Sequence record: MT446415.1
Length of the DNA: 64,000 nt
Direction: 5' to 3' (one strand)
From: Escherichia virus TH44
The translations under genes were made by a program, and so were the position numbers. The notes beneath the pieces are model-generated. The model had not been told where the DNA came from. It searched no databases and saw only the letters and a list, made by a program, of their open reading frames with translations. This document shows positions 8,128-58,823 of this stretch, in pieces; the stretch's first letter is position 1; each line of letters begins with the position of its first letter.

Positions 8128-8727
8128 ATGTCAGGTTTATATAATCAAACTAACACGACTAACTTTATATTAGAGGTGAGCGATTCAAACCTCACACAGA
8201 CCTTTAAACTAAACGTTCAAGACGTTACCCTCCCAGGGGTTCACATTCCTGTGACGGATGTTCCTGGCGGAACACAAGGTATAAATCGCTCCAGTCTTCC
8301 TGGTAGTACAATAGAATTCGACCCGCTGATTGTTAACTTTCTGTGTGACAAAGACCTAAGAGCGTGGCTTGACATCTATAAATGGATGCTCTCGCTCAAC
8401 AACTACATCACACACGAATCAAAAGCATGGCATCCGAAGGGTCGTCCCGAAGCGGTCACGCTTCATATCTTAGATAACAACAAGGACAAAATTGTCATGT
8501 CAATCCATTACTATGGAGCATGGCCGTCCGACCTGTCAGAGATTCAGTACTCATATAAAGAAGATTCTGACCCGGCTATCAATGCAACAGCAACTTTTAA
8601 CTTTAAGTCTTTTGCTGTAGAAATTGATGGTATAATAATAGAAGGTAGACCACAGATTGATAGTAATGCAGCAATGCAACAGGAAATCAGGTCTAAGTCA
8701 ATGCATCCATCTATGAGAAACGTATGA
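8128..8727 (+). CDS. 3: tail completion / sheath stabiliser gp3
   Basis: 199 aa ORF in T4 gene-3 position between 2 and 1; called by synteny. Confidence 0.7.
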   Translation: MSGLYNQTNTTNFILEVSDSNLTQTFKLNVQDVTLPGVHIPVTDVPGGTQGINRSSLPGSTIEFDPLIVNFLCDKDLRAWLDIYKWMLSLNNYITHESKAWHPKGRPEAVTLHILDNNKDKIVMSIHYYGAWPSDLSEIQYSYKEDSDPAINATATFNFKSFAVEIDGIIIEGRPQIDSNAAMQQEIRSKSMHPSMRNV

Positions 8728-9400
8728 AATTAATTGCGATTGTGGGTAAAAAACGCAGTGGTAAAGATACGACTGCTGATTATGTTATTAGTCAAAACGG
8801 AACAAAGTGGCAGCTTGCAGGTCCGATTAAAGAAGCGCTTTATAAAGCGTGGATTCGTCAAGACCTGCCACACAATTTGACCCTGGAAAATTTTGATGGA
8901 CAAGGTTATGACCGTGAAAAAACCTTGATAATGAACAACACCGAAGCTCATATTCTTCTGGCTGATGCTCTTGAATGGTTGAAACAACAATACAATCTCG
9001 ACCTTCCGAATCCGGATATGGTTCGTAAAATTATTGAATTTCACACACTAAATAATGTTGAGCCCTGGACAGTTAGACGTTTCATGCAGACCCTTGGAAC
9101 TGACATTGTTTGTACAGAGTTCGACAGCATGTTTTGGATTAAAACTTTTGCCTGCGACTATCTTGACAACCTCTATTCTGGATATAAATATTACGTTGTC
9201 CCAGATGTTCGCCAAAAGAACGAACTTGATTCGCTTCGGGCGATGGGTGCTACAATAATCTTTGTAGAACGCGATGAAGCAAATCATTCTACTGATACAC
9301 ACATTACGGAAGCTGGACTTCCACCACTAGCTAGTGACATTGTTATTAAAAACGATGGCACACTCGAAGAACTTTTTGATAAAATTAATAAGGTAATATA

Positions 9401-9401
<1 letters not shown>
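8724..9401 (+). CDS. 1: deoxynucleoside monophosphate kinase gp1
   Basis: MKLIAIVGKKRSGKDTTADYV P-loop start and ...THITEAGLP...NDGTLEELF resemble T4 gp1. Confidence 0.92.
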
Positions 9402-12063: not shown

Positions 12064-12249
12064 ATGAAACGTTGCGAATTAATTAGAAATGTTACTGCCC
12101 TTGTTGCTGTTACCACTTTTGGTTTTAACATGTTTGCTGGCTTTATGTTGAATATGCTTTCAACTTCTGAGAATATAATCTCTTTAGTAGTTGCATTTTT
12201 AATTGGTTCAATCTCTTTCGTTATGGATAAAATCTCTAAAGGTGAGTAA
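12064..12249 (+). CDS. small hydrophobic protein
   Basis: 61 aa, predicted membrane helices; cassette-driven. Confidence 0.55.
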   Translation: MKRCELIRNVTALVAVTTFGFNMFAGFMLNMLSTSENIISLVVAFLIGSISFVMDKISKGE

Positions 12250-12250
12250 A

Positions 12251-12640
12251 ATGTATAAAGTGTATGCGGATTATCAGGCAAATCCATCTGAAAAACCAGA
12301 TTGTCAAATTGGGTGGGCGCATGACACCCTGCTTGAAGCGGTAGATGAAGCTCAAAAATTAGGGTATAGTTATGTAGATATTGTTCAACCAAATGGAACA
12401 GTTATTACTCTTGAAGAATTCAAGAATATCAAAACAAACTTTTTGCTCTTTGCTGGTGATAGCTATTATCCTCGTGGCGGTTATGCTGACTTAATTGCAA
12501 AAGCTGCGACTGAAGATGAACTGCGTGATATCATTAAAGAAAACGAGAAGAAGCCTTGTTATGGTTCCAACCGTTTTGACTGGTGGCAGATTGTTAATGC
12601 CAATACGCATACTATTGTTGATGAAGGAACATGCGAATGA
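12251..12640 (+). CDS. hypothetical protein
   Basis: ATG after ggtgagtaaa; track ORF starts at 12203. Confidence 0.55.
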   Translation: MYKVYADYQANPSEKPDCQIGWAHDTLLEAVDEAQKLGYSYVDIVQPNGTVITLEEFKNIKTNFLLFAGDSYYPRGGYADLIAKAATEDELRDIIKENEKKPCYGSNRFDWWQIVNANTHTIVDEGTCE

Positions 12641-13113
12641 ATATCAAATTTGGTCAGACCATCCCTAAAGGTTATGTGATTGAAATTGAAACCTGGGAAA
12701 ATGATGGTGACAACTATAAAACCCAAACGGTATTTGGCGTAGAAGAACAAGAAATCCAACAGTACAAATATATCCTGGAACTTTTCCATGGTTCGCATTG
12801 CAATAACCGCAATAAATGTGGTAATTCAGAATGGGATGTGGTTAAACACTTGGTTATCGCCCACATTGCATCTGGTGTAAAATCTGGCCAGTTGACTTAT
12901 GAATTTTTGGATAAAGTTCTTGGTATCCAAGACTTAGAAGCCTTGCTGAATGATGATGAAGAAGCATACTATTTGAATGAAGCCCTTACTGAGCTCCTTG
13001 GTATGGCTTGCGAATATGATGGCGATTTCATGCGTGTAATTTCTTATGTTAAGCTATATATAATCGAAGAAGAAATCCGAATCCCATCTGTTAAAGCGCT
13101 TGATATGCTTTAA
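12631..13113 (+). CDS. hypothetical protein
   Basis: 160 aa ORF, start overlaps previous stop. Confidence 0.6.
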   Translation: MRMNIKFGQTIPKGYVIEIETWENDGDNYKTQTVFGVEEQEIQQYKYILELFHGSHCNNRNKCGNSEWDVVKHLVIAHIASGVKSGQLTYEFLDKVLGIQDLEALLNDDEEAYYLNEALTELLGMACEYDGDFMRVISYVKLYIIEEEIRIPSVKALDML

Positions 13114-13234
13114 CAAAAACGCGTTATTATTAATAAGTACCCTCTATTACCAAAGGTTCTTCCCTCAAAGAACCTTTCATAATAGCATGTGCTATTAATC
13201 AAACTTACTTTACTTAATTTTACTTGAGGTGTTT

Positions 13235-13504
13235 ATGTTAGTATTAAAATTAGCTTTTTACGACCCTAAAACAAAGACAACCACTACCAAACGTTGCTCT
13301 ATCTCGTATGAGTGTCAATTTGGCGAAATTCAGCATCCAACAGGCGAAACCTTTATGTCAATTGGTTGTTCAACATTCAATAAAGTCAAATTAATCCCGT
13401 TGGTTAATACGGCGGCTTATCTGGTTGCACCAGAAGAAATGACTTATCATACAATTCAGCATATGGTTAAAGATGATAATGCTCCCGCTGGATTTGTAAT
13501 TTAA
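13235..13504 (+). CDS. hypothetical protein
   Basis: ATG 7 nt after gagg (track ORF begins at GTG 13229). Confidence 0.5.
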   Translation: MLVLKLAFYDPKTKTTTTKRCSISYECQFGEIQHPTGETFMSIGCSTFNKVKLIPLVNTAAYLVAPEEMTYHTIQHMVKDDNAPAGFVI

Positions 13505-13509
13505 TTTTA

Positions 13510-13583
13510 GGCCCTGTAGCTCAATTGGTTAGAGCATCCGGCTCATAACTGGCAGGTTTCCGGTTCAAGTCCGGATGGGGCCA
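13510..13583 (+). tRNA. tRNA with CAT anticodon (Met or lysidine-type Ile2)
   Basis: Manual cloverleaf: acceptor ggccctg/tggggcc, D arm gctc..gagc, anticodon loop ctCATaa, T arm tccgg-ttcaagt-ccgga; resembles E. coli tRNA-Ile2. Confidence 0.8.
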
Positions 13584-13585
13584 CC

Positions 13586-13662
13586 CGGGGTGTAGCTCAA
13601 TTGTATAGAGCAACGGTCTTCTAAACCGTAGGTTGTGGGTTAGAATCCCACCACCCCGACCA
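13586..13662 (+). tRNA. tRNA-Arg (anticodon TCT), CCA encoded
   Basis: Manual cloverleaf: acceptor cggggtg/caccccg, anticodon stem acggt/accgt, loop ctTCTaa, T arm gtggg-ttagaat-cccac, then A+CCA. Confidence 0.88.
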
Positions 13663-13917: not shown

Positions 13918-14110
13918 GAAACCGGGTCGCTACCGGTAAGTCGTCGGACTGATGTTCCCTGGAGTATAGTTCCTCCCACGGTTTTACTGTGTTCTGGTTC
14001 TTTACTATCACAGCTGAAACGGCGCACCCTTTTAACGGAGTTTTTCCAGAGCGGACGGTGCGTCCGGTAGTACGAGAAATCAGAGCGGGTGGTGCATCCG
14101 GTACTATGGA
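13918..14110 (+). ncRNA. candidate small stable RNA (ORF-free, stem-rich)
   Basis: About 190 nt with no ORF; repeated GC-rich stems (accgggtcgctaccggt, ggacggtgcgtccggtag, gggtggtgcatccggtac); T4 has small stable RNAs in its tRNA region. Confidence 0.3.
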
Positions 14111-14111
14111 A

Positions 14112-14119
14112 TATAAATA
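14112..14119 (+). promoter_or_regulatory. T4-type late promoter TATAAATA
   Basis: Exact octamer 32 nt before the 14151 CTS-like gene. Confidence 0.55.
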
Positions 14120-14150
14120 TTAACAACAACCCTAATAATGGAAAAACAAA

Positions 14151-14534
14151 ATGCTTACATATGCAGAATTTTTAAATCGCAATACCATCACTGAATCCGT
14201 ACTGACTGAAGCTGGCAAATTTTCTTTAGTGGCTCCAGAAAAAGCCGGTGTTTCAATTGGTGACCGTGTTATGTTCAAGAAACCAGTTAATGGCGTTTCT
14301 TGGGGTATCGTAACTGGGTTTGGCATCAAAGCTAAAGACGTTAAAAACGCCGCAGCACCTGGTGCTAAACTGGCTGGTTCCAAAGTTTCAACTTATATGG
14401 TTCGCCCTAAACAGTCTCCAGGTAATGGTGCTGCTGACTGGGTTGGTGCTCCAATCGAAATCGCTCGTGATAAATTCTTGAACATCACTGACCGTGCCAA
14501 CGAACGCGCTGCAATGGCATTCGCTCGCGGATAA
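14151..14534 (+). CDS. CTS-like small protein
   Basis: Starts MLTYAEFLNRN (variant of the MKTYQEF tag); late promoter upstream. Confidence 0.6.
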   Translation: MLTYAEFLNRNTITESVLTEAGKFSLVAPEKAGVSIGDRVMFKKPVNGVSWGIVTGFGIKAKDVKNAAAPGAKLAGSKVSTYMVRPKQSPGNGAADWVGAPIEIARDKFLNITDRANERAAMAFARG

Positions 14535-14571
14535 GAACACTTGCCTTGCAGGTGGAACCCCGACAAGGTAT

Positions 14572-14600
14572 AGCCCCTTCCGAAAGGTTGGGGCTTTTTT
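14572..14600 (+). terminator. rho-independent terminator
   Basis: agcccc-ttccgaaaggtt-ggggct hairpin followed by TTTTTT. Confidence 0.75.
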
Positions 14601-14623
14601 ATAAATCAACTAAAGAGAAACGT

Positions 14624-15178
14624 ATGAAACTGTTAAAATATTTGAGTTGGATTCTGTTAGTTCCGCTGGATTTTATCTCCATGATTCTGGCCGTTATCCT
14701 GGCTCCATTTGTAGTTCCGTTCCATAATAAAAAGACTGGTAAACTTCCGTTCGGGTTTGATTGGATGATGACTTATGATAATCCGATTGATGGTGACCGT
14801 GGCCATGTCAAACGTTGGTCAAAAATCCGAAAATGGCCATTAGGTGTTTACTTCCAACGAGTAGCCTGGCTCTGGCGAAACAAAGCATACAATTTTGCTT
14901 ACCACAAGCTCGGCCGTGATTGCAATTCAGAATTCCATTATAAAGGTAATCCGGATGTTGAATCGGGCTCCCCTGATAAAGCTCATCATGGTTGGCTCTT
15001 TATGTGGACTGATAATGCATGGGGTGTTTTTGCTTCTGTTCCTTATCTTAAGGTCGGTGGAATCACCTTTTATCTGCGTGTTTATTGTGGCTGGAAGCTC
15101 AAGAGTCTTCTGTCCCGACCTATCCCTAAGGCTATGCTCGCCTTCCATATAAATCCGTTCCGCTTTTATAAGAACTAA
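14624..15178 (+). CDS. membrane protein
   Basis: Starts MKLLKYLSWILLVPLDF... after the terminator; hydrophobic N-terminus. Confidence 0.6.
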   Translation: MKLLKYLSWILLVPLDFISMILAVILAPFVVPFHNKKTGKLPFGFDWMMTYDNPIDGDRGHVKRWSKIRKWPLGVYFQRVAWLWRNKAYNFAYHKLGRDCNSEFHYKGNPDVESGSPDKAHHGWLFMWTDNAWGVFASVPYLKVGGITFYLRVYCGWKLKSLLSRPIPKAMLAFHINPFRFYKN

Positions 15179-15179
15179 C

Positions 15180-15201
15180 AGCCCGCATTGCGGGCTTTTT
15201 T
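15180..15201 (+). terminator. rho-independent terminator
   Basis: agcccgc-attg-cgggct followed by TTTTT. Confidence 0.75.
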
Positions 15202-37002: not shown

Positions 37003-37218
37003 ATGGAAATAGTAGGTTTTATTCTCCTTTACTTTGTGCTAGGATTCATAACGACCATTATCATTCATAAATCGGGTGATTGGAATCCAATCGAAATTGA
37101 ATCAAGCTATGACGCAGTATTCATTACACTAGTATGGCCTCTGCTTTGGTTTGTTTGGGCAATTATGATGGTGTTTTGGCCTATTGCTAAATTCTATGAA
37201 AAATTATTTGGACTATGA
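37003..37218 (+). CDS. small membrane protein
   Basis: 71 aa, two TM helices. Confidence 0.55.
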   Translation: MEIVGFILLYFVLGFITTIIIHKSGDWNPIEIESSYDAVFITLVWPLLWFVWAIMMVFWPIAKFYEKLFGL

Positions 37219-37219
37219 T

Positions 37220-38104
37220 ATGAAAATTAAAACTCGCGCTGAATATGCTAGTAGTTATGGACCATATGACGGTCGTGTGACTCGTCTTATCGCAATGAAT
37301 TCTTTGGTTAACTTTGGCAAAATCAAATCAGGTTCTGCTACCCAGGGGTATGGTCAACGTATTGTAAGAATTAACTCTCTGAATGATTACTGCCGTCGCC
37401 CGGCGTTTTTGTTTGGTGCCACGGTTCGTAAGAGTATCAAGGAAATCCTGGCTGCTGGATTTCGTATTCGCAAAGCTCCGGTTAACATCAAGAACTATAA
37501 TTTTAACTCTGACAACTTGATTATCAATATCAATTATGATGGTGTACAGATTAAGTTCAAACCAACCACTAAGGGTGATGTTGCTCTTTGTGATACCTTT
37601 AAAGAGGTTATGGGTATTGCTCTGTTTTATATGCGTCATGCCGTTGAAGCATACACGTTTGAAGAAGATACAAATTATATCCATCAAACAGAAAAATTCC
37701 TTAAAACCGTAACTATCGATATTAAACTGACAAAGGAATATCTTTTGTCTTATGCACCTTATCAAGAGAAAAAGGAACCAGAAATGGCGGAACGTATCCC
37801 TACTGCGACATATAACCCATCAGTTACAGGTCAGTTTAAATCTTACGACCAGGCTAAAATTTCACCGCTGGACGTTAAAAATATGTATCAATGGAAAATC
37901 CAGCCAAACAGCTCTCTTGAAATCTTTAACCCACCAATGAAGCCTATTGAGAGCTATCATGCTGATGCTATCCAGGAATCAGTCAACCGCTTAAATGGTC
38001 TGATTGAAGATGAGAAAAAGGGTATCCAGGATGTTCTGAATCGCATCAAGAACATGGAAAAACAACGCAATAAATTGCAAGCTGCAATCAAAGCATTAAA
38101 ATAA
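37220..38104 (+). CDS. hypothetical protein
   Basis: Start at ATG 2 nt after previous stop (alternatives 37184, 37196). Confidence 0.55.
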   Translation: MKIKTRAEYASSYGPYDGRVTRLIAMNSLVNFGKIKSGSATQGYGQRIVRINSLNDYCRRPAFLFGATVRKSIKEILAAGFRIRKAPVNIKNYNFNSDNLIININYDGVQIKFKPTTKGDVALCDTFKEVMGIALFYMRHAVEAYTFEEDTNYIHQTEKFLKTVTIDIKLTKEYLLSYAPYQEKKEPEMAERIPTATYNPSVTGQFKSYDQAKISPLDVKNMYQWKIQPNSSLEIFNPPMKPIESYHADAIQESVNRLNGLIEDEKKGIQDVLNRIKNMEKQRNKLQAAIKALK

Positions 38105-41472: not shown

Positions 41473-41946
41473 ATGTTGTTGACTGGCAAATTATACAAAG
41501 AAGAAAAACAAAAACTTTATGATGCACAAGCTGGTAAGTGTCCAATTTGCCACCGTGATTTGGACTCCGATGTTCAGGCCAACCATCTTGACCATGACCA
41601 CGAATTGAACGGGCCAAAAGCTGGTAAGGTTCGCGGGTTACTATGCAATCTGTGCAATGGAACAGAAGGACAAATGAAGCATAAGTTCAGCCGTTCGGGT
41701 CTAAAAGGTCGCAATGTTGACTACCTGGAATGGTTAGAGAGTTTGCTTGTCTATCTGAAATCTGATTATACCGAAAATAATATTCACCCTAATTTTGTGG
41801 CAGACAAAGCCAAAGAGTTCGGTCGCCTAGGGAAAGAAGAAATGATTCAGGAAATGCTTTTGAACGGCATGACTTATAATGAATCTGATACGAAGCCTAA
41901 ACTACAAGCTTCATTTAAAAAACAACTGAGGAAATCACTTAAATGA
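41473..41946 (+). CDS. 49: endonuclease VII (Holliday junction resolvase)
   Basis: MLLTGKLYKEEKQKLYDAQAGKCPIC...HLDHDHELNGPKAGKVRGLLCNLCN...FKKQLRKSLK, near-identical to T4 gp49. Confidence 0.95.
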   Translation: MLLTGKLYKEEKQKLYDAQAGKCPICHRDLDSDVQANHLDHDHELNGPKAGKVRGLLCNLCNGTEGQMKHKFSRSGLKGRNVDYLEWLESLLVYLKSDYTENNIHPNFVADKAKEFGRLGKEEMIQEMLLNGMTYNESDTKPKLQASFKKQLRKSLK

Positions 41947-42031
41947 TTAATTTTTATGGAATTATTGTTTATTGTATTGGCGAAGCTATAAACAATTTAA
42001 TACGAGTGATGGGTGACGAGTATCCTTCTCA

Positions 42032-42283
42032 ATGGCTATTCCTCGTAACCAATACAGGACCTTTCTAATGAACAAATTTCGTAATGCTGTTTCTGATATC
42101 CTGGCCAATATTACATTTGTCCTGTTTATTGTATGCCTTTTAATCTTGGTCATCCCATTTGGATTGCTGTTTGTGATGATTGGCGCCCTGAGTACTGAAA
42201 AGGGCCTTGAAGGGTCTGAGTTCGACAAACGAATCCAGGCTGTCCATAGTGTTATTACTAAAATGATGAAGGTGAAAGAATGA
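42032..42283 (+). CDS. small membrane protein
   Basis: 83 aa with TM helix; start uncertain. Confidence 0.45.
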   Translation: MAIPRNQYRTFLMNKFRNAVSDILANITFVLFIVCLLILVIPFGLLFVMIGALSTEKGLEGSEFDKRIQAVHSVITKMMKVKE

Positions 42284-45089: not shown

Positions 45090-45647
45090 ATGAACGAAAT
45101 TAAATTAACCAAGAATAACTATGTAAATAATAAAGAGCTTTTGAAAGCTATTTCGGAGTGGAAACAGAAGCTGAATGCGAACACTGACCCGAACAAAATT
45201 ATTCGCCAGAACGATGTTATTGGTCTGGCGATTATGCTTATAGCCGAAGGTCTTAGCAAACGTTTTAACTTCTCCGGATATACCCAATCCTGGAAGCAAG
45301 AAATGATAGCGGACGGAATTGAGGCCGCAATAAAAGGTCTTCACAACTTCGACGAAACAAAATACGATAATCCACATGCTTACATAACAATGGCTTGCTT
45401 CAATGCTTTCGTTCAGCGTATCAAAAAAGAACGTAAAGAAATGGCAAAGAAATATAGCTACTTCGTCCATAACGTATATGATTCACGTGACGACGATATG
45501 GTGGCTCTGGCTGATGAAACATTTATCCAGGACATCTATGACAAAATGACACAGTACGAATCCTCCTTAGTTAAAGTGCCAGGGTCTGATAAGAGCACCA
45601 AAGATAAAGAGGGTGATTTGGATTTTTTATATGGAACATCAATTTGA
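45090..45647 (+). CDS. 55: late-transcription sigma factor gp55
   Basis: 185 aa; [12 protein letters not shown]...[41 protein letters not shown]..., near-identical to T4 gp55. Confidence 0.96.
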
Positions 45648-45864
45648 TATTACCGATTTTTTAGATAAAATCGAGGAAGACTTTACGGCTCTCCCATATT
45701 TCATTAAACTTTATCTGCGAGACATAAAAGGTCTTCCAATTGATATCGACCCTTTAAACGTCCGGAATCTGGAATTTACTTCACCGGATAATAACGTTGA
45801 TTATCGTTATCATGTGGATAATGCTAATCTATATTTTACAATTGAGTTAACTCCCAAGGATTAA
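45631..45864 (+). CDS. hypothetical protein
   Basis: Internal ATG of track ORF 45613; overlaps gene 55 end. Confidence 0.45.
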
Positions 45865-45865
45865 T

Positions 45866-46177
45866 ATGCAAGCTCCAGATATTTCTCAACTGACCGATAA
45901 GCAGATTGAAGAAGCACAGGAACGTCTCGAAGAAGCGAACGCACTCGAAGCAACCAGTCAAGCAGCGAAGATTCTGAAAAAGAATGCTCGCGAAATTGCA
46001 CGACTGAATAAGCATGCTCAAGGGGCAGTGCTGGAAAACAATTTTGAAGCATACAAATACGCTTTAGTTAAACTGCGTGGGATTTACCGCCAACCCGTTA
46101 CGGAAGACCTGATTAAGTTGATGTGGGATTCTACTCGCAAACAAATTTGGGAAATCGTAAATGGCATTAGTAAATAA
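45866..46177 (+). CDS. hypothetical coiled-coil protein
   Basis: 103 aa. Confidence 0.55.
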   Translation: MQAPDISQLTDKQIEEAQERLEEANALEATSQAAKILKKNAREIARLNKHAQGAVLENNFEAYKYALVKLRGIYRQPVTEDLIKLMWDSTRKQIWEIVNGISK

Positions 46178-46361
46178 ACCCTTTAAACGGCTTCTTATTG
46201 GAGCCGCTTTCAGACTTCGCTCATATGGTAATATCTGTATCAAGCAGACCGAAACCGAATACAAAATGATGGGCCAATATTCTGATGGTATTTTTAAGAT
46301 TGAGCCTGTAGCCAAGGTTTGGGTCGATTCTCATCAACTTAAGAAATGGTGGCAACGATGA
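46161..46361 (+). CDS. small basic protein
   Basis: 66 aa ORF. Confidence 0.45.
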   Translation: MALVNKPFKRLLIGAAFRLRSYGNICIKQTETEYKMMGQYSDGIFKIEPVAKVWVDSHQLKKWWQR

Positions 46362-46379
46362 TAACATGGACAGGTGGCT

Positions 46380-46480
46380 AATGAAAGACGAACATCCTGA
46401 TTTTTAAAAGCTTATGAATGACGAATATGAAAAAGTTTAAGAGGCTGTATGAATGACGAATTCGACGGATTTTGATAAGA
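46380..46480 (+). repeat. three tandem ~34-bp units, each starting tATGAA(A/T)GACGAA and encoding an 8-codon mini-ORF
   Basis: Mini-ORFs MKDEHPDF (46381), MNDEYEKV (46414), MNDEFDGF (46449). Confidence 0.6.
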
Positions 46481-46626
46481 TTAAATCTGACAAAAATGAG
46501 ATGATACTTCAATTTGAAGCCGCTCGCATTAAAGCAGAAAATGAAGGTACTATTACCTATAAGCCTATCAAGTTCAGGTCTTCTCATGAACCTCTGTACG
46601 GTGTATTAATTGGAAAGGAAGCCTAG
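46453..46626 (+). CDS. small hypothetical protein (57 aa)
   Basis: Below track cutoff; ATG nested in third repeat unit, 8 nt after aagagg; stop inside terminator loop. Confidence 0.4.
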   Translation: MTNSTDFDKIKSDKNEMILQFEAARIKAENEGTITYKPIKFRSSHEPLYGVLIGKEA

Positions 46627-46639
46627 CGCTTCCTTTTTT
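46616..46639 (+). terminator. rho-independent terminator
   Basis: aggaagc-ctagc-gcttcct followed by TTTTT. Confidence 0.7.
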
Positions 46640-46683
46640 GCTTTATATTCGAGATGATAAAATGAACCAACTGAGGAGAACAT

Positions 46684-46827
46684 ATGGAATTATTTTTAGG
46701 ATATGTCGTGTTATTCATGGCATTCTACACATTCACACGAGCTTGTTGGATAGGATTCTTTTCCACTCCTGACGGGTTCATTTCAATAATTTTATTTTGC
46801 ACTGCGATAACGGCGCTTGGCTTATGA
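46684..46827 (+). CDS. small membrane protein (47 aa)
   Basis: ATG after ctgaggagaacat; hydrophobic; stop overlaps gene 47 start. Confidence 0.45.
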   Translation: MELFLGYVVLFMAFYTFTRACWIGFFSTPDGFISIILFCTAITALGL

Positions 46828-47843
46828 AAATTTTAAATTTAGGTGATTGGCACTTAGGTGTCAAAGCTGACGACCCATGGGCTCAAAACATTCAACGCGA
46901 TGGTATTTTACAGGCGATTGCATATTCCAAAGCGAATGGGATTAAAGTCTGGATTCAATATGGTGATATTTTTGACGTCCGTAAGGCCGTAACGCATAAG
47001 ACGATGGAATTCAGCCGTGAGATTATGGAACTCCTTCGTGAAGCAGGAATTACTATGCACACGATAGTCGGGAACCATGACATGAATCTGAAGAATAAGA
47101 TTCATCCTAATGCTATCACTGAACTCCTGAATAAGTATGACCATGTTAAAATCTACGATAAGCCAACGACTGTTGATTTTGACGGTTGTCAGATTGATAT
47201 GATTCCATGGATGTGTGACGAGAACGCAACTGACATTCACCAACATATCAAAACTTCTGGGGCTGAATATTGCATCGGTCACTGGGAATTAACCGGGTTT
47301 TATTTCTATAAAGGATTGAAATCCCACGGTCTTGAGCCTGATTTCCTTAAGAAGTACAAGCAAGTTTGGTCTGGTCACTTTCACACAATTTCAGAAGCTG
47401 CAAACGTTAAGTACATCGGGACACCATGGACATTAACAGCAGGTGATGAGAACGACCCGCGCGGGTTCTGGGAATTTGATACCGAAACCGAAGAGATGAA
47501 ATTTATTCCGAATGAAACCACCTGGCATCGGAAGATTTTCTATCCAAACGAAACTATTAACTACGACGACTTCAAAGACTTATCAGTCCGTGTTATTGTA
47601 GAAAAAGTCGATAAAGACCTGACCAAGTTCGAATCCGAATTAGAAAAGCGTGTACATGAATTACGTGTTGTCAATAAGGTTGATAACAGTGTTGATACGA
47701 CTGACTCCGAAGAAGAGTTAGATATAAAACGCTTAACTGATATGATGGCAGAATATATCGATGCATTACCTGACGCCAATGAGAAAGAATCAAAAGCTCT
47801 CAAAGCATTGGCCAACAAATTATATCTTGAGGTGCAACCATGA
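46824..47843 (+). CDS. 47: recombination endonuclease subunit gp47 (Mre11/SbcD-like)
   Basis: MKILNLGDWHLGVKADDPWAQNIQ...IQYGDIFDVRKA...VGNHD, near-identical to T4 gp47. Confidence 0.96.
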   Translation: MKILNLGDWHLGVKADDPWAQNIQRDGILQAIAYSKANGIKVWIQYGDIFDVRKAVTHKTMEFSREIMELLREAGITMHTIVGNHDMNLKNKIHPNAITELLNKYDHVKIYDKPTTVDFDGCQIDMIPWMCDENATDIHQHIKTSGAEYCIGHWELTGFYFYKGLKSHGLEPDFLKKYKQVWSGHFHTISEAANVKYIGTPWTLTAGDENDPRGFWEFDTETEEMKFIPNETTWHRKIFYPNETINYDDFKDLSVRVIVEKVDKDLTKFESELEKRVHELRVVNKVDNSVDTTDSEEELDIKRLTDMMAEYIDALPDANEKESKALKALANKLYLEVQP

Positions 47844-53623: not shown

Positions 53624-56338
53624 ATGCAAGAATTTTATTTAACTATCGAACAAATTGGTGACAATCTGCTCGAACGATACATTGACAAGAACGGTCATGA
53701 ACGTGTTCGTGAAATCCCTTATGCTCCATGCTTGTTTATGCACGCCCGGGAAGGTCAGGCTGCAAAGTATACAGACATCTATAATAAAGGTTGTGTGAAA
53801 AAAGAATTCGATTCCATGCGTGATGCGTCCCAGTGGATGAAGCGAATGAATGACATGGGTCTCGAAGCTATGGGTATGGATGACTTTAAACTCGCATACT
53901 TGTCCGACCGTTACCCGCACGAAATCAAATATGATTCAAGTAAAATCCGTGTTGCTAACTTCGATATCGAGGTGACATCTCCCGATGGGTTCCCTGAACC
54001 GTCTGAAGCACGTCACCCTATTGATGCCCTGACGCACTATGATTCGGTAGACGATAAATTCTATGTCTTTGACCTTTTGGGCTCACCATACGCCACTGTG
54101 GAGCAATGGTCTATTGATATTGCTGCTAAGCTACAGGAAGACGGCGGTGATGAAGTCCCTGAAGAAATCCTGGAAAAAATTGTTTATATGGCTTTCGATT
54201 CAGAAGAAGAAATGCTCCAGCAGTATTTGGTATTCTGGAACGAGAAAACTCCGGTTATGCTAACTGGTTGGAACATCGAGAAGTTTGATATTCCATATAT
54301 CTACAACCGCCTTAAAAATATATTTGGTGAAGCTACAGCAAAACGTCTGAGCCCACATCGTCGTACAAAAGTTAAGGTCATTAACAACGGCTTTGGTGAA
54401 GAACAAGAAATCATTCAGATTCTGGGTATCTCTGTTCTGGATTATCTGGACCTGTATAAAAAGTTCAGCTTCACAAACCAACCGTCTTATTCGTTGGATT
54501 ATGTTGCGGAATCTGAACTTGGTGTTGGTAAACTCCCGTATGATGGCCCGATTTCTAAACTGCGTGAATCAAATCACCAGCGGTATATTTCTTATAACAT
54601 CATCGACGTTTATCGTGTTGTGCAGATTGACCGTAAGCGGCAGTTTATTAACCTGAGCCAGTCAATGGGTTATTATGCAAAAATGCAGATTCAGTCTGTA
54701 TTCAGCCCAATCAAAACTTGGGATGCGATTATCTTTAACAGCCTGAAGACTCAAAACAAAGTCATTCCGGAAACCAAATCGCATGTTCGTCAATCGTTCC
54801 CTGGTGCATTTGTTAAGGAACCGATTCCGAACGCATACAAATATGTAATGAGCTGTGACTTAACATCTCTGTATCCGAGCATTATCCGACAGATTAACAT
54901 CAGTCCAGAAACGATTGCCGGTTCATTTGCACCAGCCCAGATGTATGAATACATCGCAGGAACTGCTGACCGTCCATCTGATACATTTAGTTGTGCTCCA
55001 AATGGTATGATGTATTTTAAAGATGTTGCGGGTATTATTCCGACAGAAGTCACCAAGGTGTTTAATCAGCGTAAAGAACACAAAGGCTATATGCTTGCGG
55101 CTCAACGTAATGGTGAACTGATTAAGGAAGCTCTGCGTAATCCAGGAACGGGTACAACCGAGCCTGAAGTTGATTATCGTTATGACTTTGATGACAATAT
55201 GAAAACGGCCCTGCATGGTCTGAATCAAACAGTCCTGAATGGTATGCTGTACAAAGCGCAGATGGAAGAAGTTGCAGGCATGACCGCACAGATTAACCGT
55301 AAACTGCTTATCAACAGTTGTTATGGCGCTCTGGGCAATATCTGGTTCCGTTACTTTGACCTGCGAAATGCGACCGCGATTACATCTTTCGGACAACTTG
55401 CATTGCAGTGGATTGAGCGTAAAGTTAACGAATACTTCGATAGTGTTTGTGGGACAAGCGGCGAAACTTATGTGTTCTATGGCGATACTGACTCCATTTA
55501 TATCCAGTGCGATAACCTTATTAAAAAGGTTGGTGGTGAATCTAAATTCCGTGATACAAACCACCTGGTTGACTTCATGGACAAGTTTGCGAAAGACCGC
55601 CTGGAACCGGCAATCGATAAAGCTTTCCGTGAGCTGGCTGAATACATGAACAACAAACAGCATCTTATGTTTATGGACCGTGAAGCGATTGCATGTCCTC
55701 CGCTGGGTTCTAAAGGTGTGGGTGGATTCTGGACGGCGAAGAAACGTTATGCGCTGAACGTGTACGATATGGAAGGCACACGTTATGCTGTTCCGAAATT
55801 GAAAATCATGGGTCTGGAAACTCAAAAGTCGAGTACTCCAAAGGCATGTCAGAAAGCTCTGAAAGAATGTATCCGCCGTATGCTGCAAGAAGGTGAAGAA
55901 TCCCTGCAGACATACTTCAAGGAATTCAATAAGGAATTTAATGAGCTTAACTATATGACCATCGCGGGTGTATCATCGGTTAACAACATCCAGAAATATA
56001 ATGAAGGTGGTTTCCCTGGATTTAAGTGCCCGGCTCATATCAAAGGTGTGCTTGCATATATGCGTGCAACTAAAGGTCTGAAGACTGTTCCGCAAATCAT
56101 GGAAGGGGAAAAGGTGTATGTACTTCCTCTTAAAGTCGGCAACCCGTTTGGTGAAACCGTGATTGCATGGCCATCTGGGATTGAACTCCCGATTGAAATC
56201 CGTGACCAGGTTCTGCAGTGGATGGATTACAGTGCTTTGTTCCAGAAGACTTTTGTTAAGCCGTTATCAGGTTTCTCTGAAGCTGCAAAGGTTGATTACG
56301 AAAAGAAAGCAACTCTTTTTGACATGTTCGACTTTTAA
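53624..56338 (+). CDS. 43: DNA polymerase gp43
   Basis: 904 aa; exo motifs FDIEV and YNIIDV, pol motifs DLTSLYPSII, KILINSCYGALG, YGDTDS. Confidence 0.98.
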   Translation: MQEFYLTIEQIGDNLLERYIDKNGHERVREIPYAPCLFMHAREGQAAKYTDIYNKGCVKKEFDSMRDASQWMKRMNDMGLEAMGMDDFKLAYLSDRYPHEIKYDSSKIRVANFDIEVTSPDGFPEPSEARHPIDALTHYDSVDDKFYVFDLLGSPYATVEQWSIDIAAKLQEDGGDEVPEEILEKIVYMAFDSEEEMLQQYLVFWNEKTPVMLTGWNIEKFDIPYIYNRLKNIFGEATAKRLSPHRRTKVKVINNGFGEEQEIIQILGISVLDYLDLYKKFSFTNQPSYSLDYVAESELGVGKLPYDGPISKLRESNHQRYISYNIIDVYRVVQIDRKRQFINLSQSMGYYAKMQIQSVFSPIKTWDAIIFNSLKTQNKVIPETKSHVRQSFPGAFVKEPIPNAYKYVMSCDLTSLYPSIIRQINISPETIAGSFAPAQMYEYIAGTADRPSDTFSCAPNGMMYFKDVAGIIPTEVTKVFNQRKEHKGYMLAAQRNGELIKEALRNPGTGTTEPEVDYRYDFDDNMKTALHGLNQTVLNGMLYKAQMEEVAGMTAQINRKLLINSCYGALGNIWFRYFDLRNATAITSFGQLALQWIERKVNEYFDSVCGTSGETYVFYGDTDSIYIQCDNLIKKVGGESKFRDTNHLVDFMDKFAKDRLEPAIDKAFRELAEYMNNKQHLMFMDREAIACPPLGSKGVGGFWTAKKRYALNVYDMEGTRYAVPKLKIMGLETQKSSTPKACQKALKECIRRMLQEGEESLQTYFKEFNKEFNELNYMTIAGVSSVNNIQKYNEGGFPGFKCPAHIKGVLAYMRATKGLKTVPQIMEGEKVYVLPLKVGNPFGETVIAWPSGIELPIEIRDQVLQWMDYSALFQKTFVKPLSGFSEAAKVDYEKKATLFDMFDF

Positions 56339-56340
56339 GT

Positions 56341-56370
56341 GTTTACAACGGCAATGGATTGCCGTATTAT
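56341..56370 (+). promoter_or_regulatory. early promoter (GTTTAC-N18-TATTAT) with palindromic spacer
   Basis: Directly after gene 43 stop; spacer contains cggcaat-gg-attgccg. Confidence 0.5.
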
Positions 56371-56407
56371 TACCTCATCAACTGATGAATAACTTAAGGA
56401 TATTAAA

Positions 56408-56650
56408 ATGGAAACATTAATTGCGGGTACTGTTGTTCTTGGTGCAGGTTCTTTCTTCCTGGCTGCACTGGCATATTTTCTGCCGTGGATTATCGCGCTG
56501 CTGCGTGGTACCAAAAGTAATTGTGGAATCTTCTTTGTTAACCTCCTGATAGGTTGGACAATGGTCGGATGGTTTATTGCATTTATCTGGGCACTCGTTG
56601 CTGAACGTAAATCAAACGCACAAGTAATTATCATCAAGGAAGCAAAATGA
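56408..56650 (+). CDS. small inner-membrane protein (Imm-like position)
   Basis: 80 aa, two TM helices; lies where T4 has imm. Confidence 0.55.
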   Translation: METLIAGTVVLGAGSFFLAALAYFLPWIIALLRGTKSNCGIFFVNLLIGWTMVGWFIAFIWALVAERKSNAQVIIIKEAK

Positions 56651-56790
56651 AGATAATTACAATTATTGTACTGATTGCATTTTTTAGTATGTCAATCTAT
56701 TGGGCAATAATGACTCCACATATGATTCCAACTTTAATTTTGGGTTGGGTATTTTTGGGGCTCCAAGCCCGCTATGAATGTTTTAATTAG
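56647..56790 (+). CDS. small membrane protein (47 aa)
   Basis: Below track cutoff; hydrophobic; ATGA overlap. Confidence 0.4.
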   Translation: MKIITIIVLIAFFSMSIYWAIMTPHMIPTLILGWVFLGLQARYECFN

Positions 56791-56798
56791 GAAGCAAA

Positions 56799-57302
56799 AT
56801 GAAAAAGTTAGCTATCGCAGCTGTTATGCTGCTATCTGGTTGTGCTTACCAGGGTGATGTTGTTAATGCCAACGAGATTGGTAAAGCGCGAATTGCTGCA
56901 GACCGTCAGGTGCATAATGGTTCCTTTGATTTCAAAGGTGGTACTGGACTTATCTACAAACGCGACAACAATCAATGTGGAAACAACTGCGCGAAATATG
57001 CTCAACAAGAAATTGAGTACAAACGCGAGCAAGCTGCGAAGCATGACGAAATCATTGCCAAGCTGGAAGCAGAAACCAAGCGACAAAATGACCTGGATAC
57101 TGTTAACCAGATTTCACAGGTCTGCATGTCATATATCAATATGCAGATAAACATCATGCGCGCAGAAGCTTATCAGGCAGCGGAGACGGGTTCTCCAAAA
57201 GCTAATGAGTACCGCGATATGTATCAGCGTTCTGCTCAAAACCGTCTGAGCTATATTAATAAATGTGTAGCTAAAGAGAAAGCACGCCAAGGTATTAACT
57301 GA
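56799..57302 (+). CDS. lipoprotein
   Basis: Signal peptide with lipobox MKKLAIAAVMLLSGC. Confidence 0.65.
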   Translation: MKKLAIAAVMLLSGCAYQGDVVNANEIGKARIAADRQVHNGSFDFKGGTGLIYKRDNNQCGNNCAKYAQQEIEYKREQAAKHDEIIAKLEAETKRQNDLDTVNQISQVCMSYINMQINIMRAEAYQAAETGSPKANEYRDMYQRSAQNRLSYINKCVAKEKARQGIN

Positions 57303-57644
57303 TGTTATTATTACTTCTGATTGTTGTAACAGTAATTGGTTTGTTGCTATTAGAAAAGCGTAATAAGCATTTGGCTGAAGAAAACTGGAAACGTGGTAAC
57401 GTTTACTAAATTACTCTGAACTGCGAGAAAAATATTATGATTGGTGCGCTATTGATTAGTCTGTGGCTGTTGTCTGCATTTGGTATTGGTTTTATGTACT
57501 GGTGGGACAAACGTCAGACCCGGAAGATTGTTGAACGTGCAATTAATCGTGGTTTCAATCGTTAATTGCTCTAAAAATACAGTGATATAATTATCCTATC
57601 TTAAACCTGTGAGAAAAATATAATGGTGCCTATGGAAAAAATGA

Positions 57645-58823
57645 ATGTCTATTGCAGATTTGAAATCCCGTTTGATTAAAGCTTCTACATCCAAAATGAC
57701 CGCGACTCTTACCAAGTCCAAGTTTTTTAATGATAAAGATGTAGTTCGTACAAAAATCCCGATGCTGAACATTGCAATCAGCGGTGCACTAGATGGTGGT
57801 ATGCAGTCAGGTTTGACTATTTTTGCTGGTCCGTCAAAACACTTTAAATCCAATATGGGTTTAACGATGGTCTCTGCATATATGAACAAATACCCCGATG
57901 CAATCTGTTTGTTCTATGATTCAGAATTTGGTATCACAGAAGCATATCTTCGTGCAATGAAAGTTGACCCGGAACGTGTTATCCATACACCAATCCAGTC
58001 GGTTGAACAATTGAAAGTTGATATGGTTAACCAGCTTGAAGCAATTGAGCGTGGTGAAAAAGTCATTATCTTTATTGACTCAATCGGTAACATGGCGTCG
58101 AAAAAAGAAACAGAAGATGCGATGAACGAAAAAGTCGTTGGCGATATGACCCGTGCTAAATCCTTGAAATCTCTATTCCGTATTGTTACTCCGTATTTTA
58201 GTATCAAGGATATTCCTTGTGTCGCGGTTAACCATACAATCGAGACGATTGAGATGTACAGCAAAACCGTTATGACTGGTGGTACTGGTGTTATGTATTC
58301 TGCTGATACCGTATTCATTATCGGTAAACGCCAGATTAAAGAAACCGGTAAAGAACTTGAAGGTTTCCAATTTGTTCTGAACGCCGAAAAATCTCGTATG
58401 GTCAAAGAGAAAAGTAAATTCTTCATTGATGTAAAATTCGATGGTGGGATTGACCCGTATTCTGGCCTGCTTGATATGGCAATGGAAATCGGATTTGTGG
58501 TGAAACCGAAAGTTGGTTGGTATAACCGTGAATATCTTGATGTTGAGACCGGTGAAATGGTCCGCGAAGAAAAATCATGGCGTGCAAAAGATACCAACTG
58601 TACTGAATTCTGGGGCCCGTTGTTCAAGCACGAACCTTTCCGTGACGCAATCAAACGTCATTACCAGCTGGGTGCAATCGATAGCAATGCTGTTGTTGAT
58701 GCCGAAGTTGATGCGCTTATTGCCTCCAAGGTTGAAAAATACTCCGCTCCTGAAGGTAAGACAAAACCGTCCGCGGCAGATATCGAAAACGATTTAGATA
58801 TGATGGAAGACCTTGATGAATGA
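57645..58823 (+). CDS. uvsX: RecA-like recombinase UvsX
   Basis: 392 aa; LKSRLIKASTSK, GPSKHFKSN (Walker A), VIIFIDSIGN, near-identical to T4 UvsX. Confidence 0.97.
   Translation: MSIADLKSRLIKASTSKMTATLTKSKFFNDKDVVRTKIPMLNIAISGALDGGMQSGLTIFAGPSKHFKSNMGLTMVSAYMNKYPDAICLFYDSEFGITEAYLRAMKVDPERVIHTPIQSVEQLKVDMVNQLEAIERGEKVIIFIDSIGNMASKKETEDAMNEKVVGDMTRAKSLKSLFRIVTPYFSIKDIPCVAVNHTIETIEMYSKTVMTGGTGVMYSADTVFIIGKRQIKETGKELEGFQFVLNAEKSRMVKEKSKFFIDVKFDGGIDPYSGLLDMAMEIGFVVKPKVGWYNREYLDVETGEMVREEKSWRAKDTNCTEFWGPLFKHEPFRDAIKRHYQLGAIDSNAVVDAEVDALIASKVEKYSAPEGKTKPSAADIENDLDMMEDLDE

What the first reader, a model, noticed from the sequence alone, without database searches (positions are those of the whole stretch)
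45647..46824. dCMP hydroxymethylase and glucosyltransferase slots are empty, suggesting unmodified cytosine DNA
In T4 the alpha-glucosyltransferase lies between genes 55 and 47, and dCMP hydroxymethylase (42) and beta-glucosyltransferase lie between 43 and uvsX. Here 55-to-47 (45647-46824) holds only small ORFs and a tandem repeat, and 43-to-uvsX (56338-57645) holds small membrane and lipoprotein genes. This implies the phage lacks glucosyl-hydroxymethylcytosine, as reported for RB49-group phages, unless the genes sit outside this window. Unmodified DNA would fit the large investment in injected proteins and other candidate counter-defence genes.
Basis: partly seen in the sequence, partly recalled or inferred. 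Interest (0 to 1): 0.5.

Follow-up and report, generated by a model that had tools for sequence, protein, structure and literature searches.

The report
Empty glucosyl-hmC slots; likely 5-methylcytosine phage
This T4-like phage (genus Gaprivervirus) really has no hydroxymethylase or glucosyltransferase genes, but its DNA is probably not plain: relatives have modified cytosines, and their "thymidylate synthase" carries the one active-site change that turns that enzyme into a dCMP methylase, pointing to 5-methylcytosine DNA.

Summary
The 55→47 interval holds only orthologues of T4 a-gt.5, a-gt.4, a-gt.3, a-gt.2 and 47.1, that is, T4 minus mobB and α-gt. The 43→uvsX interval holds imm, a lipoprotein and three tiny membrane ORFs. 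Sister-genus Dhakavirus carries a 4.35 kb, five-gene cytosine-modification cluster at that spot. The "tandem repeat" is only two 14-nt copies 35 nt apart.

The window is a Gaprivervirus (94–97% identical to SP18, VR7, UPEC01, CJ20). Neither the window nor the whole SP18 genome has a gp42, α-gt or β-gt homologue. This absence is already published as a puzzle.

"Unmodified cytosine" is not supported. The genus keeps dCTPase (56), DenA, DenB and Alc, and VR7 DNA was shown experimentally to carry non-glycosylated modified cytosines.

My lead: the only thymidylate-synthase-family gene of the genus (td, outside the window) has Asp at E. coli ThyA position 177. It keeps Leu143 and Asp169. All other Tevenvirinae Td proteins have Asn177. 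By published mutagenesis and residue rules this predicts a dCMP C5-methyltransferase, hence Xp12-like 5-methylcytosine DNA. This is inferred, not demonstrated, and rests on relatives because td lies outside the window.

The parts
45090..45647 (+). gene 55 (late sigma factor), left border of the alpha-gt slot
   Evidence: 80% identical to T4 gp55, 98-99% to SP18 and UPEC01
45631..45864 (+). a-gt.5 orthologue (77 aa, DUF5491)
   Evidence: 41% identical to T4 a-gt.5; Pfam DUF5491 and phrog_1169
45866..46177 (+). a-gt.4 orthologue (103 aa, DUF2654)
46161..46361 (+). a-gt.3 orthologue (66 aa)
   Evidence: 43% identical to T4 a-gt.3; phrog_1648
   Evidence: Tandem Repeats Finder finds no array
46453..46626 (+). 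a-gt.2 orthologue (57 aa, DUF5486)
   Evidence: 58% identical to T4 a-gt.2
46612..46638 (+). terminator-like hairpin followed by a T run, at the place where T4 carries mobB and alpha-gt
46684..46827 (+). 47.1 orthologue (47-aa membrane protein); its stop overlaps the start of gene 47
   Evidence: 78% identical to T4 gp47.1; phrog_6693
46824..47843 (+). gene 47 (SbcD-like nuclease subunit), right border of the alpha-gt slot
   Evidence: 72% identical to T4 gp47
53624..56338 (+). gene 43 DNA polymerase, left border of the 42/beta-gt slot
56408..56650 (+). imm (superinfection immunity, 80 aa)
   Evidence: Pfam Imm_superinfect; 52% identical to T4 Imm
56647..56790 (+). 47-aa membrane ORF, also present in Dhakavirus VR5 and, unannotated, in T4 between imm and 42
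   Evidence: phrog_3610
56799..57302 (+). 167-aa predicted lipoprotein (lipobox LSGC), function unknown
   Evidence: sequence; phrog_1754; 51% identical to the VR5 homologue
57195..57580 (.). junction: these ~385 bp stand where Dhakavirus VR5 has a 4.35 kb five-gene cytosine-modification cluster (557-aa protein, sugar-phosphate-isomerase-like, thymidylate-kinase-like, 42-like TS homologue, 297-aa protein)
   Evidence: none of the five VR5 proteins has a homologue in the window or in SP18
57302..57409 (+). 35-aa membrane ORF
   Evidence: present in UPEC01
57437..57565 (+). 42-aa membrane ORF with no counterpart in SP18 or UPEC01
57645..58823 (+). uvsX, right border of the 42/beta-gt slot
8724..9401 (+). 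gene 1 dNMP kinase; the only step of the proposed modified-dCMP pathway encoded inside the window
   Evidence: 98% identical to SP18 gp1

Best explanation
The window comes from a Gaprivervirus, a T4-like coliphage of the SP18/VR7 group. This lineage lost the glycosylated-cytosine apparatus, so both slots are really empty. Cytosine is still replaced, most likely by 5-methylcytosine made at the nucleotide level.

Proposed pathway:
1. gp56 dCTPase destroys dCTP and yields dCMP.
2. The enzyme in the td slot is a full-length, folate-type thymidylate synthase in which the uracil-selecting Asn177 (E. coli numbering) is Asp. It methylates dCMP to 5-methyl-dCMP.
3. gp1 dNMP kinase (in the window) and host NDP kinase convert this to the triphosphate.
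4. gp43 incorporates it into DNA.
5. dTMP comes from host ThyA and/or from deamination of 5-methyl-dCMP by the phage dCMP deaminase, as described for phage Xp12.
6. DenA, DenB and Alc then act selectively on host cytosine DNA.

Shown here: the slots are empty; gp42 and the glucosyltransferases are absent; the dCTPase/DenA/DenB/Alc set is retained in relatives; N177D with Leu143 and Asp169 kept is specific to this clade.

Taken from the literature: VR7 DNA has non-glycosylated modified cytosines; N177D switches TS to dCMP methylation.

Inferred: the base is 5mC, the enzyme is active on dCMP, and this phage carries the same td allele.
For: 1. Identity. The window is 94-97% identical to Gaprivervirus genomes.

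2. Gene loss. No gp42, alpha-gt or beta-gt homologue is found in the window or in the whole SP18 genome. None of the five Dhakavirus cluster genes is present either. The junction is clean.

3. Cytosine-excluding genes retained.
- SP18 gp56 is 70% identical to T4 dCTPase, and UPEC01 has an annotated dCTPase.
- SP18 has denA, denB, cd and gp1.
- A full-length 167-aa Alc ORF is present.
- Published gene tables agree.

4. Experiment on a relative. VR7 DNA 'has modified cytosines' and is not glycosylated. The legend distinguishes it from the hmC-containing T4 mutant.

5. The td-slot protein reads MALPPCH...RSVDVFLGLPFDIGSY in SP18, VR7, UPEC01 and CJ20. Dhakavirus, Mosigvirus, Tequatrovirus and T4 Td (PDB 1TIS) read PFNIASY.
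- Among the 120 best cluster representatives from 5.8 billion proteins, 5 have Asp. Four are the Gaprivervirus clade. The fifth is an uncultured sister lineage that shares 20 of the 34 clade-specific residues.
- All 13 full-length cluster members that were read have L143/D169/D177.

6. Selection. dN/dS is 0.04-0.18 within the clade, and both GAT and GAC are used for the Asp codon. The gene is therefore functional and the Asp is maintained.

7. It is the only TS-family gene in SP18.

8. Published residue rules.
- N177D switches TS from dUMP to dCMP and yields 5mdCMP (PMC8670742).
- Asp goes with cytosine substrates (PMC5175136).
- A bulky Leu143 goes with a methyl product, D/E143 with hydroxymethyl, and D169N with 5-hydroxy (PMC13326640).

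9. Precedent. Xp12 has a dCMP methyltransferase and an alternative thymidylate route.
Against: - td, 56, denA, denB and alc are outside the window, so nothing about them is shown for this phage itself.
- No enzyme assay or nucleoside analysis exists. I could not see the gel of PMC6326788 Fig. S4, only its legend.
- Engineered N177D enzymes keep some dUMP activity, so the natural enzyme could be bifunctional or mainly a TS.
- Whether gp56, gp1, DenB and Alc discriminate 5-methyl-dC nucleotides or DNA from dC is not known to me.
- Some Gapriverviruses are propagated on E. coli K-12 MG1655 (host field of phage RZ). As I recall, K-12 has the 5mC-dependent nucleases McrA, McrBC and Mrr, so an anti-restriction function would be needed. 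No arn is annotated in SP18, and I did not search for one by sequence.
- The two original VR-phage papers (Arch Virol 2010 and 2011) are not held, so they may already say something on this.
Confidence: 0.6

Rival explanations
1. One reading: the phage has ordinary unmodified cytosine DNA, like RB49/Krischvirus, and relies on injected proteins and other counter-defences.
For: No gp42, glucosyltransferase or Dhakavirus-type cluster is present in the window or in SP18. Krischviruses are documented to have cytosine DNA (PMC6563267). RB43 and RB49 also carry DenA and dCTPase homologues (PMC8056088).
Against: Unlike the RB49 group, Gaprivervirus keeps denB and alc as well as 56 and denA. VR7 DNA was found to have modified cytosines. 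N177D is conserved under purifying selection in the only TS homologue.
Confidence: 0.08
2. Cytosine is replaced by a different, still unknown base. It would be made either by the Asp177 enzyme with a product other than methyl, or by an unrecognised enzyme. This is the suggestion in the 2021 and 2025 comparative papers.
For: Both papers propose an unknown non-canonical base. TS homologues have recently shown unexpected chemistry, namely 5-hydroxy-dCMP synthesis. The VR7 legend says only 'modified cytosines'. Many window ORFs have no known function, including DUF7338, DUF7275/7277 and DUF7235 proteins.
Against: The Asp177 enzyme keeps Leu143, Asp169, His147 and the TS C-terminus. It also keeps an overlapping frd (DHFR) gene, consistent with ordinary reductive methylation. 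Pfam scans of 20 larger unassigned window ORFs found no nucleotide- or DNA-modifying domain. By the SP18 annotators' similarity notes, ORFs with no similarity to JS98 are all small except a 687-aa protein in the baseplate gene block.
Confidence: 0.22
3. The DNA is replicated with normal dC and methylated afterwards by a phage or host DNA methyltransferase. The td Asp is irrelevant.
For: 'Modified cytosines' in a restriction assay would also fit post-replicative methylation.
Against: No DNA methyltransferase is annotated in SP18, and T4 Dam has no homologue. I did not run a profile search for cytosine-methyltransferase domains. VR7 was grown on E. coli BL21, which as I recall is dcm-minus. A conserved dCTPase would starve replication of dCTP.
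Confidence: 0.05

Closest known systems
Xanthomonas phage Xp12 (complete 5-methylcytosine substitution through a phage dCMP methyltransferase)
   Same: It has the proposed chemistry: dCMP is methylated with a folate cofactor before polymerisation, and thymidylate can be derived from the methylated nucleotide (PMC8543423, PMC5175136).
   Different: Xp12 is an unrelated siphovirus of Xanthomonas. I could not retrieve its enzyme sequence for comparison. In Gaprivervirus the enzyme would be a neofunctionalised T4-type td in the conserved frd-td-nrdA position, working with T4-type gp56, gp1, DenA, DenB and Alc.
Engineered thymidylate synthases E. coli N177D and L. casei N229D
   Same: They carry the same single residue change on a canonical TS scaffold. 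It is reported to switch preference from dUMP to dCMP and give 5-methyl-dCMP (as summarised in PMC8670742 and PMC13326640).
   Different: Those are laboratory mutants. Here the change is natural and accompanied by 33 further clade-specific substitutions, including A179G, A182G, F149L and Q162L in E. coli numbering. It is conserved across proteins as little as 67% identical.
T4 and other Tequatrovirus (glucosyl-hmC: gp42 plus alpha-/beta-glucosyltransferase)
   Same: Gene order is the same around both slots. The small a-gt.2 to a-gt.5, 47.1 and imm genes are shared, and relatives have the same dCTPase/DenA/DenB/Alc/gp1 set.
   Different: gp42, alpha-gt, beta-gt, mobB, segA, imm.1 and dam are all absent.
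Dhakavirus (JS98, VR5), the sister genus with glycosylated cytosine
   Same: It shares imm, the 47-aa ORF and the lipoprotein directly after gene 43. It also shares the near-absence of GATC.
   Different: VR5 carries five extra genes between the lipoprotein gene and uvsX. One is a 42-like TS homologue with the D169N/D177 signature of 5-hydroxy-dCMP synthases. VR5 DNA is glycosylated and escapes BREX, whereas VR7 DNA is not glycosylated and is restricted.
RB49-group phages (Krischvirus), unmodified cytosine
   Same: No gp42 and no glucosyltransferases.
   Different: They also lack denB and alc (Table 4 of PMC12115623). Gaprivervirus keeps both, and VR7 DNA is modified.

Membership tests
T4-type glucosyl-hydroxymethylcytosine system | dCMP hydroxymethylase (gp42) | tested here: not met
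   tblastn with T4 gp42 gives no hit at E<=0.1 in the window, or at E<=1 in the complete SP18 genome. The VR5 42-like protein also finds nothing.
T4-type glucosyl-hydroxymethylcytosine system | alpha- and/or beta-glucosyltransferase | tested here: not met
   No tblastn hit in the window or SP18. Both slots are filled by small ORFs.
T4-type glucosyl-hydroxymethylcytosine system | dCTPase (gp56) that removes dCTP | tested here: inconclusive
   Present in SP18 (70% identical to T4 gp56) and in UPEC01. The gene lies just beyond the window end: the window stops at SP18 locus position 39272 and gp56 starts at 40700.
Unmodified-cytosine T4-like phages (RB49/Krischvirus type) | No enzyme for a modified pyrimidine nucleotide | tested here: not met
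   gp42 is absent, but the only TS homologue of the genus has the dCMP-selecting Asp177.
Unmodified-cytosine T4-like phages (RB49/Krischvirus type) | No cytosine-DNA-specific host shut-off genes (denB, alc) | tested here: not met
   SP18 encodes a 184-aa DenB and a 167-aa Alc. A second Gaprivervirus-like contig also has a 167-aa Alc ORF. This was checked in relatives, not in the window.
Unmodified-cytosine T4-like phages (RB49/Krischvirus type) | Virion DNA cut by cytosine-modification-sensitive enzymes | not testable with these tools
   The literature reports the opposite for VR7 ('has modified cytosines').
Xp12-type 5-methylcytosine DNA (dCMP methyltransferase pathway) | TS-family enzyme with Asp at ThyA position 177 (dCMP substrate) | tested here: met
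   PFDIGSY is found in SP18, VR7, UPEC01, CJ20 and all 13 full-length cluster members read. Other Tevenvirinae have Asn. The gene is outside the window.
Xp12-type 5-methylcytosine DNA (dCMP methyltransferase pathway) | Residues for reductive methyl transfer kept (Leu143, Asp169, Cys146, folate-type C-terminus) | tested here: met
   MALPPCH, RSVD and the ...APMAV C-terminus align without gaps around the active site to T4 Td 1TIS. The rules come from PMC13326640.
Xp12-type 5-methylcytosine DNA (dCMP methyltransferase pathway) | dCMP methyltransferase activity of the enzyme | not testable with these tools
   Needs expression and a nucleotide assay.
Xp12-type 5-methylcytosine DNA (dCMP methyltransferase pathway) | 5-methyl-dC replaces dC in virion DNA | not testable with these tools
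   Only indirect evidence exists: VR7 cytosines are modified and not glycosylated.
Dhakavirus/Mosigvirus-type glycosylated 5-hydroxycytosine | TS homologue with D169N (5-hydroxy-dCMP synthase) | tested here: not met
   The Gaprivervirus enzyme keeps Asp169. The VR5 42-like protein (RSQN) has no homologue in the window or SP18.
Dhakavirus/Mosigvirus-type glycosylated 5-hydroxycytosine | Sugar-nucleotide and glycosyltransferase gene cluster between gene 43 and uvsX | tested here: not met
   The 4.35 kb cluster of VR5 corresponds to about 385 bp in the window.

The most novel reading that the evidence does not exclude
Gapriverviruses carry a cytosine derivative not yet described in any virus. It would be made by the Asp177 'thymidylate synthase' with new chemistry or by one of the unassigned genes. 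The empty 42 and glucosyltransferase slots would then mark a switch to a new modification system inside a T4 chassis.
Probability: 0.18. Interest if true: 0.8.

Novelty: new member of a known kind. Interest (0 to 1): 0.55.

Why it matters
The absence of gene 42 in a genus that keeps every cytosine-DNA-destroying function has been flagged twice (2021, 2025) as an unexplained contradiction. It also leaves the therapeutic suitability and transduction risk of these common coliphages unclear.

A single-residue explanation (td turned into a dCMP methylase) makes the question directly testable with one LC-MS run or one expression experiment.

If it is right, three things follow:
- It would be, as far as I know, the first T4-like coliphage group with 5-methylcytosine DNA.
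- It would be a natural example of the classic N177D specificity switch.
- It would show that closely related Tevenvirinae genera swap between glycosyl-hmC, glycosyl-5hoC and 5mC on the same replication chassis. That has consequences for sensitivity to BREX, type IV restriction and other defences.

Tried and rejected
- **Gene 42 elsewhere.** I looked for a relocated or divergent gene 42, alpha-gt or beta-gt by tblastn in the window and in all five pieces of the SP18 genome. None was found. The five VR5 cluster proteins also gave nothing.
- **Alternative modification enzyme in the window.** Pfam scans of 20 larger unassigned ORFs gave only DUFs, a T4 y05I-like factor and the nrdC.11 nucleotidyltransferase-like protein, which T4 also has.
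- **The slot ORFs themselves.** Pfam and PHROGs on the ten small ORFs of the two slots gave only conserved unknown-function families and Imm.
- **T4 Dam.** No homologue in SP18 or the window.
- **Split alc as a sign of decay.** I rejected this. The longer ORF is full length (167 aa, which as I recall is the length of T4 Alc), and the 77-aa ORF is an extra N-terminal-like copy.
- **Independent N→D event in P0069.** I rejected this as well. P0069 shares 20 of the 34 clade-specific residues, so it is a deep member of the same clade.
- **Palindrome avoidance as a proxy for modification state.** Uninformative, except for the GATC result listed under things noticed.
- **Literature.** No paper in the library reports the td Asn→Asp change in this genus. 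The VR5/VR7/VR20 paper, the VR7 genome paper (the DOI I tried for it was from memory) and Hardy & Nalivaika 1992 could not be retrieved.
- **Xp12 enzyme sequence.** I had no accession, so I could not compare it.
Full report
**What the window is.** The 55–47 region is 94–97% identical to Gaprivervirus genomes (CJ20, UPEC01, TH41, SP18, VR7, VR20; Straboviridae, Tevenvirinae). No record in the collection reaches 99%. The + strand runs opposite to the standard T4 map. It spans from gene 6 in the baseplate block through genes 5, 53, 4, 2, 3, 1, the tRNA region, e, tk, nrdC, 49, 55, 47, 46, 45, 44, 62, regA, 43, uvsX, 40 and 41, and ends just before gene 61. Gene 56 therefore lies about 1.4 kb beyond the right end of the window. 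td, denA, denB, alc and cd are far outside it.

In the window, the 55→47 interval is almost fully coding. It holds orthologues of T4 a-gt.5, a-gt.4, a-gt.3, a-gt.2 and 47.1 at 41–78% identity. This is exactly the T4 interval with mobB and α-gt removed. A terminator-like hairpin sits at 46612–46638, where those genes would be.

The 43→uvsX interval holds imm, a 47-aa membrane ORF, a 167-aa lipobox protein and two tiny membrane ORFs.

tblastn with T4 gp42, α-gt, β-gt and gp56 finds nothing in the window.

The "tandem repeat" is not an array. TRF finds none, and there are only two 14-nt copies 35 nt apart. The core observation is confirmed.

**The slot is empty relative to the sister genus too.** In Dhakavirus VR5 the same imm, 47-aa ORF and lipoprotein genes are followed by five genes before uvsX:
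- a 557-aa protein;
- a phosphoheptose-isomerase-like protein;
- a thymidylate-kinase-like protein;
- a 42-like thymidylate-synthase homologue;
- a 297-aa protein.

Homology between the window and VR5 stops at window position ~57195 and resumes at ~57581. About 385 bp therefore replace 4.35 kb. None of the five proteins has a homologue in the window or in SP18. The VR5 42-like protein reads RSQN…QLD. That is the D169N/D177 signature recently shown to mark 5-hydroxy-dCMP synthases of arabinosylated phages (PMC13326640).

**Is gene 42 elsewhere?** I fetched the complete annotated SP18 genome in five pieces. tblastn finds no gp42, α-gt or β-gt anywhere at E ≤ 1.

This absence is already in the literature. 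PMC8056088 (2021) and PMC12115623 (2025) both state that Gaprivervirus lacks the hmC enzyme while keeping dCTPase, DenA, DenB and Alc. [quoted passage not shown] The empty slots are therefore real but already known.

**Why "unmodified cytosine" does not hold.** There are three reasons.
- RB49-type phages, which do have cytosine DNA, lack denB and alc. SP18 has gp56 (70% identical to T4 dCTPase), denA, denB, cd, gp1 and a full-length 167-aa Alc plus an extra 77-aa fragment-like copy. UPEC01, the closest long match, has a dCTPase at the expected place.
Gordeeva et al. (PMC6326788) digested VR7 DNA with modification-sensitive enzymes, with and without T4 β-glucosyltransferase. They concluded that VR5 and T4 DNA are glycosylated, that the T4 mutant is hydroxymethylated, and that "VR7 has modified cytosines" in unglycosylated DNA.
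- The enzyme evidence below points the same way.

**A candidate enzyme.** The SP18 "thymidylate synthase" in the conserved frd–td–nrdA position reads …MALPPCH…WYQRSVDVFLGLPFDIGSYG….

Aligned to T4 Td (PDB 1TIS, 65% identity, no gaps around the active site) and to E. coli ThyA, the Asp stands at ThyA Asn177. SP18, VR7, UPEC01 and CJ20 all have Asp, and CJ20 carries an allele only 86% identical to the SP18 protein. Dhakavirus dhabil, Mosigvirus Shf125875, Tequatrovirus OE5505 and T4 have Asn.

In a search of 5.8 billion proteins, 115 of the 120 best cluster representatives have Asn and 5 have Asp. Four of the five are the Gaprivervirus clade. The fifth (P0069, 67% identical, on a T4-like metagenomic contig with the same frd–td synteny) shares 20 of the 34 clade-specific residues. 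Its closest cultured relatives are the Gapriverviruses, so it is a deep member of the same clade.

All 13 full-length members read from the clusters have Leu143, Asp169 and Asp177. dN/dS within the clade is 0.04–0.18, and the Asp codon occurs as both GAT and GAC. This is a functional gene with a maintained Asp. It is also the only TS-family gene in SP18.

**What the residues predict.**
- Asn177→Asp (Asn229→Asp in L. casei) switches a canonical TS from dUMP to dCMP and gives 5-methyl-dCMP (Hardy & Nalivaika 1992; Liu & Santi 1992; Graves et al. 1992, as summarised in PMC8670742). In metaviromes, Asp177 TS homologues associate with cytosine-modified contigs.
- Asp goes with cytosine substrates in T4 gp42 and MilA (PMC5175136).
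- Lee et al. 2026 add that a bulky Leu143 excludes water and goes with a methyl product, that D/E143 goes with hydroxymethyl, and that D169N marks 5-hydroxy-dCMP synthases.
- The Gaprivervirus protein has L143, D169 and D177, which reads as dCMP in and methyl out.

It also keeps His147, the TS C-terminus and an overlapping DHFR gene. That fits reductive methylation producing dihydrofolate.

Six of 149 more distant 50%-identity representatives share the L/D/D signature. All are unnamed metagenomic proteins or are labelled simply "thymidylate synthase".

**Proposed mechanism.** See the best explanation for the six steps. Briefly: gp56 yields dCMP, the Asp177 enzyme makes 5-methyl-dCMP, gp1 (window 8724–9401) and host NDP kinase make the triphosphate, and gp43 incorporates it. 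dTMP comes from host ThyA or from deamination of 5-methyl-dCMP, as in Xp12. DenA, DenB and Alc spare phage DNA. CpG methylation is reported to block Alc (Kashlev 1993, as cited in PMC8056088).

Shown: gene content, synteny and residue pattern. From the literature: modified cytosines in VR7 and the effect of N177D. Inferred: the identity of the base, the activity of the natural enzyme, the specificity of gp56/gp1/DenB towards 5-methyl-dC, and that this particular phage carries the same out-of-window genes.

**Weak points.**
- I saw only the legend of the VR7 restriction figure.
- Engineered N177D enzymes retain some dUMP activity.
- Fully 5mC DNA should be attacked by McrBC, McrA and Mrr of E. 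coli K-12, yet some members are grown on MG1655, and no arn is annotated in SP18. An unidentified anti-restriction function would be required.
- The original VR-phage papers are not held, so I cannot exclude that the td change was noted there. None of seven literature searches found it.

**Verdict.** The absence of 42 and the glucosyltransferases is already known. The new element is a concrete and cheaply testable explanation for a published puzzle, namely a natural N177D thymidylate synthase implying Xp12-like 5-methylcytosine DNA in a T4-like coliphage genus. I put about 0.6 on that, about 0.2 on another unknown cytosine derivative, and under 0.1 on plain cytosine.

Noticed in passing
whole window (single site at 35197); also SP18 loci L001 and L003-L006, UPEC01 L007, VR5 L016: GATC is almost absent. 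The window has 1 site against about 223 expected, the whole SP18 genome has 5 against about 590, UPEC01 (47 kb) has 0 against 162, and Dhakavirus VR5 (10.8 kb) has 2 against 37. T4 (29 kb) has 36 against 91. All other 4-mer palindromes in the window have observed/expected ratios of 0.66-1.13. T4 dam has no homologue in SP18 or the window. Because Dhakavirus shares the avoidance, it is not tied to the type of cytosine modification. One literature search found no report.
   Followed up: partly
window 41946-42068: The anaerobic ribonucleotide reductase genes nrdD and nrdG (2.4 kb in SP18 and UPEC01, between gene 49 and 55.8) are missing. Only about 120 bp separate the gene 49 stop from the 55.8 start, and tblastn with SP18 NrdD and NrdG finds nothing in the window.
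   Followed up: partly
window 11743-13607 and 13961-15188: Two stretches near the tRNA region have no counterpart in SP18. They carry ORFs 12203-12640, 12631-13113, 14151-14534 and 14546-15178. The last is a DUF7338 protein; the others match no Pfam family.
   Followed up: partly
window 37184-38104: This is an intact 306-aa DUF7235 protein covering the full Pfam model. SP18 annotates it as two ORFs (gp093 and gp092), so the gene is probably split or frameshifted in SP18.
   Followed up: no
L002 (T4) 12231-12320, between imm and gene 42: The window's 47-aa membrane ORF (56647-56790) matches an unannotated stretch of T4 between imm and 42 (57% identity over 30 aa). This suggests a small conserved gene missing from the T4 annotation.
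   Followed up: no
L005 32072-32822 (SP18) and L015 7979-8726: Gapriverviruses carry a full-length 167-aa Alc ORF preceded by a 77-aa ORF that resembles the Alc N-terminus. This looks like a partial tandem duplication rather than a disrupted gene.
   Followed up: partly
L014 (Logan SRR24146912 contig, 5.4 kb): An uncultured T4-like lineage has an Asp177 td homologue (P0069, 67% identical to SP18's). It has frd-td synteny but a normal GATC frequency (22 against 23 expected). It is a deeper branch of the putative dCMP-methylase clade.
   Followed up: partly
window 57437-57565: This 42-aa membrane ORF lies in a ~260 bp stretch absent from SP18. It also has no match in UPEC01, so the junction left by the lost modification cluster varies within the genus.
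   Followed up: no
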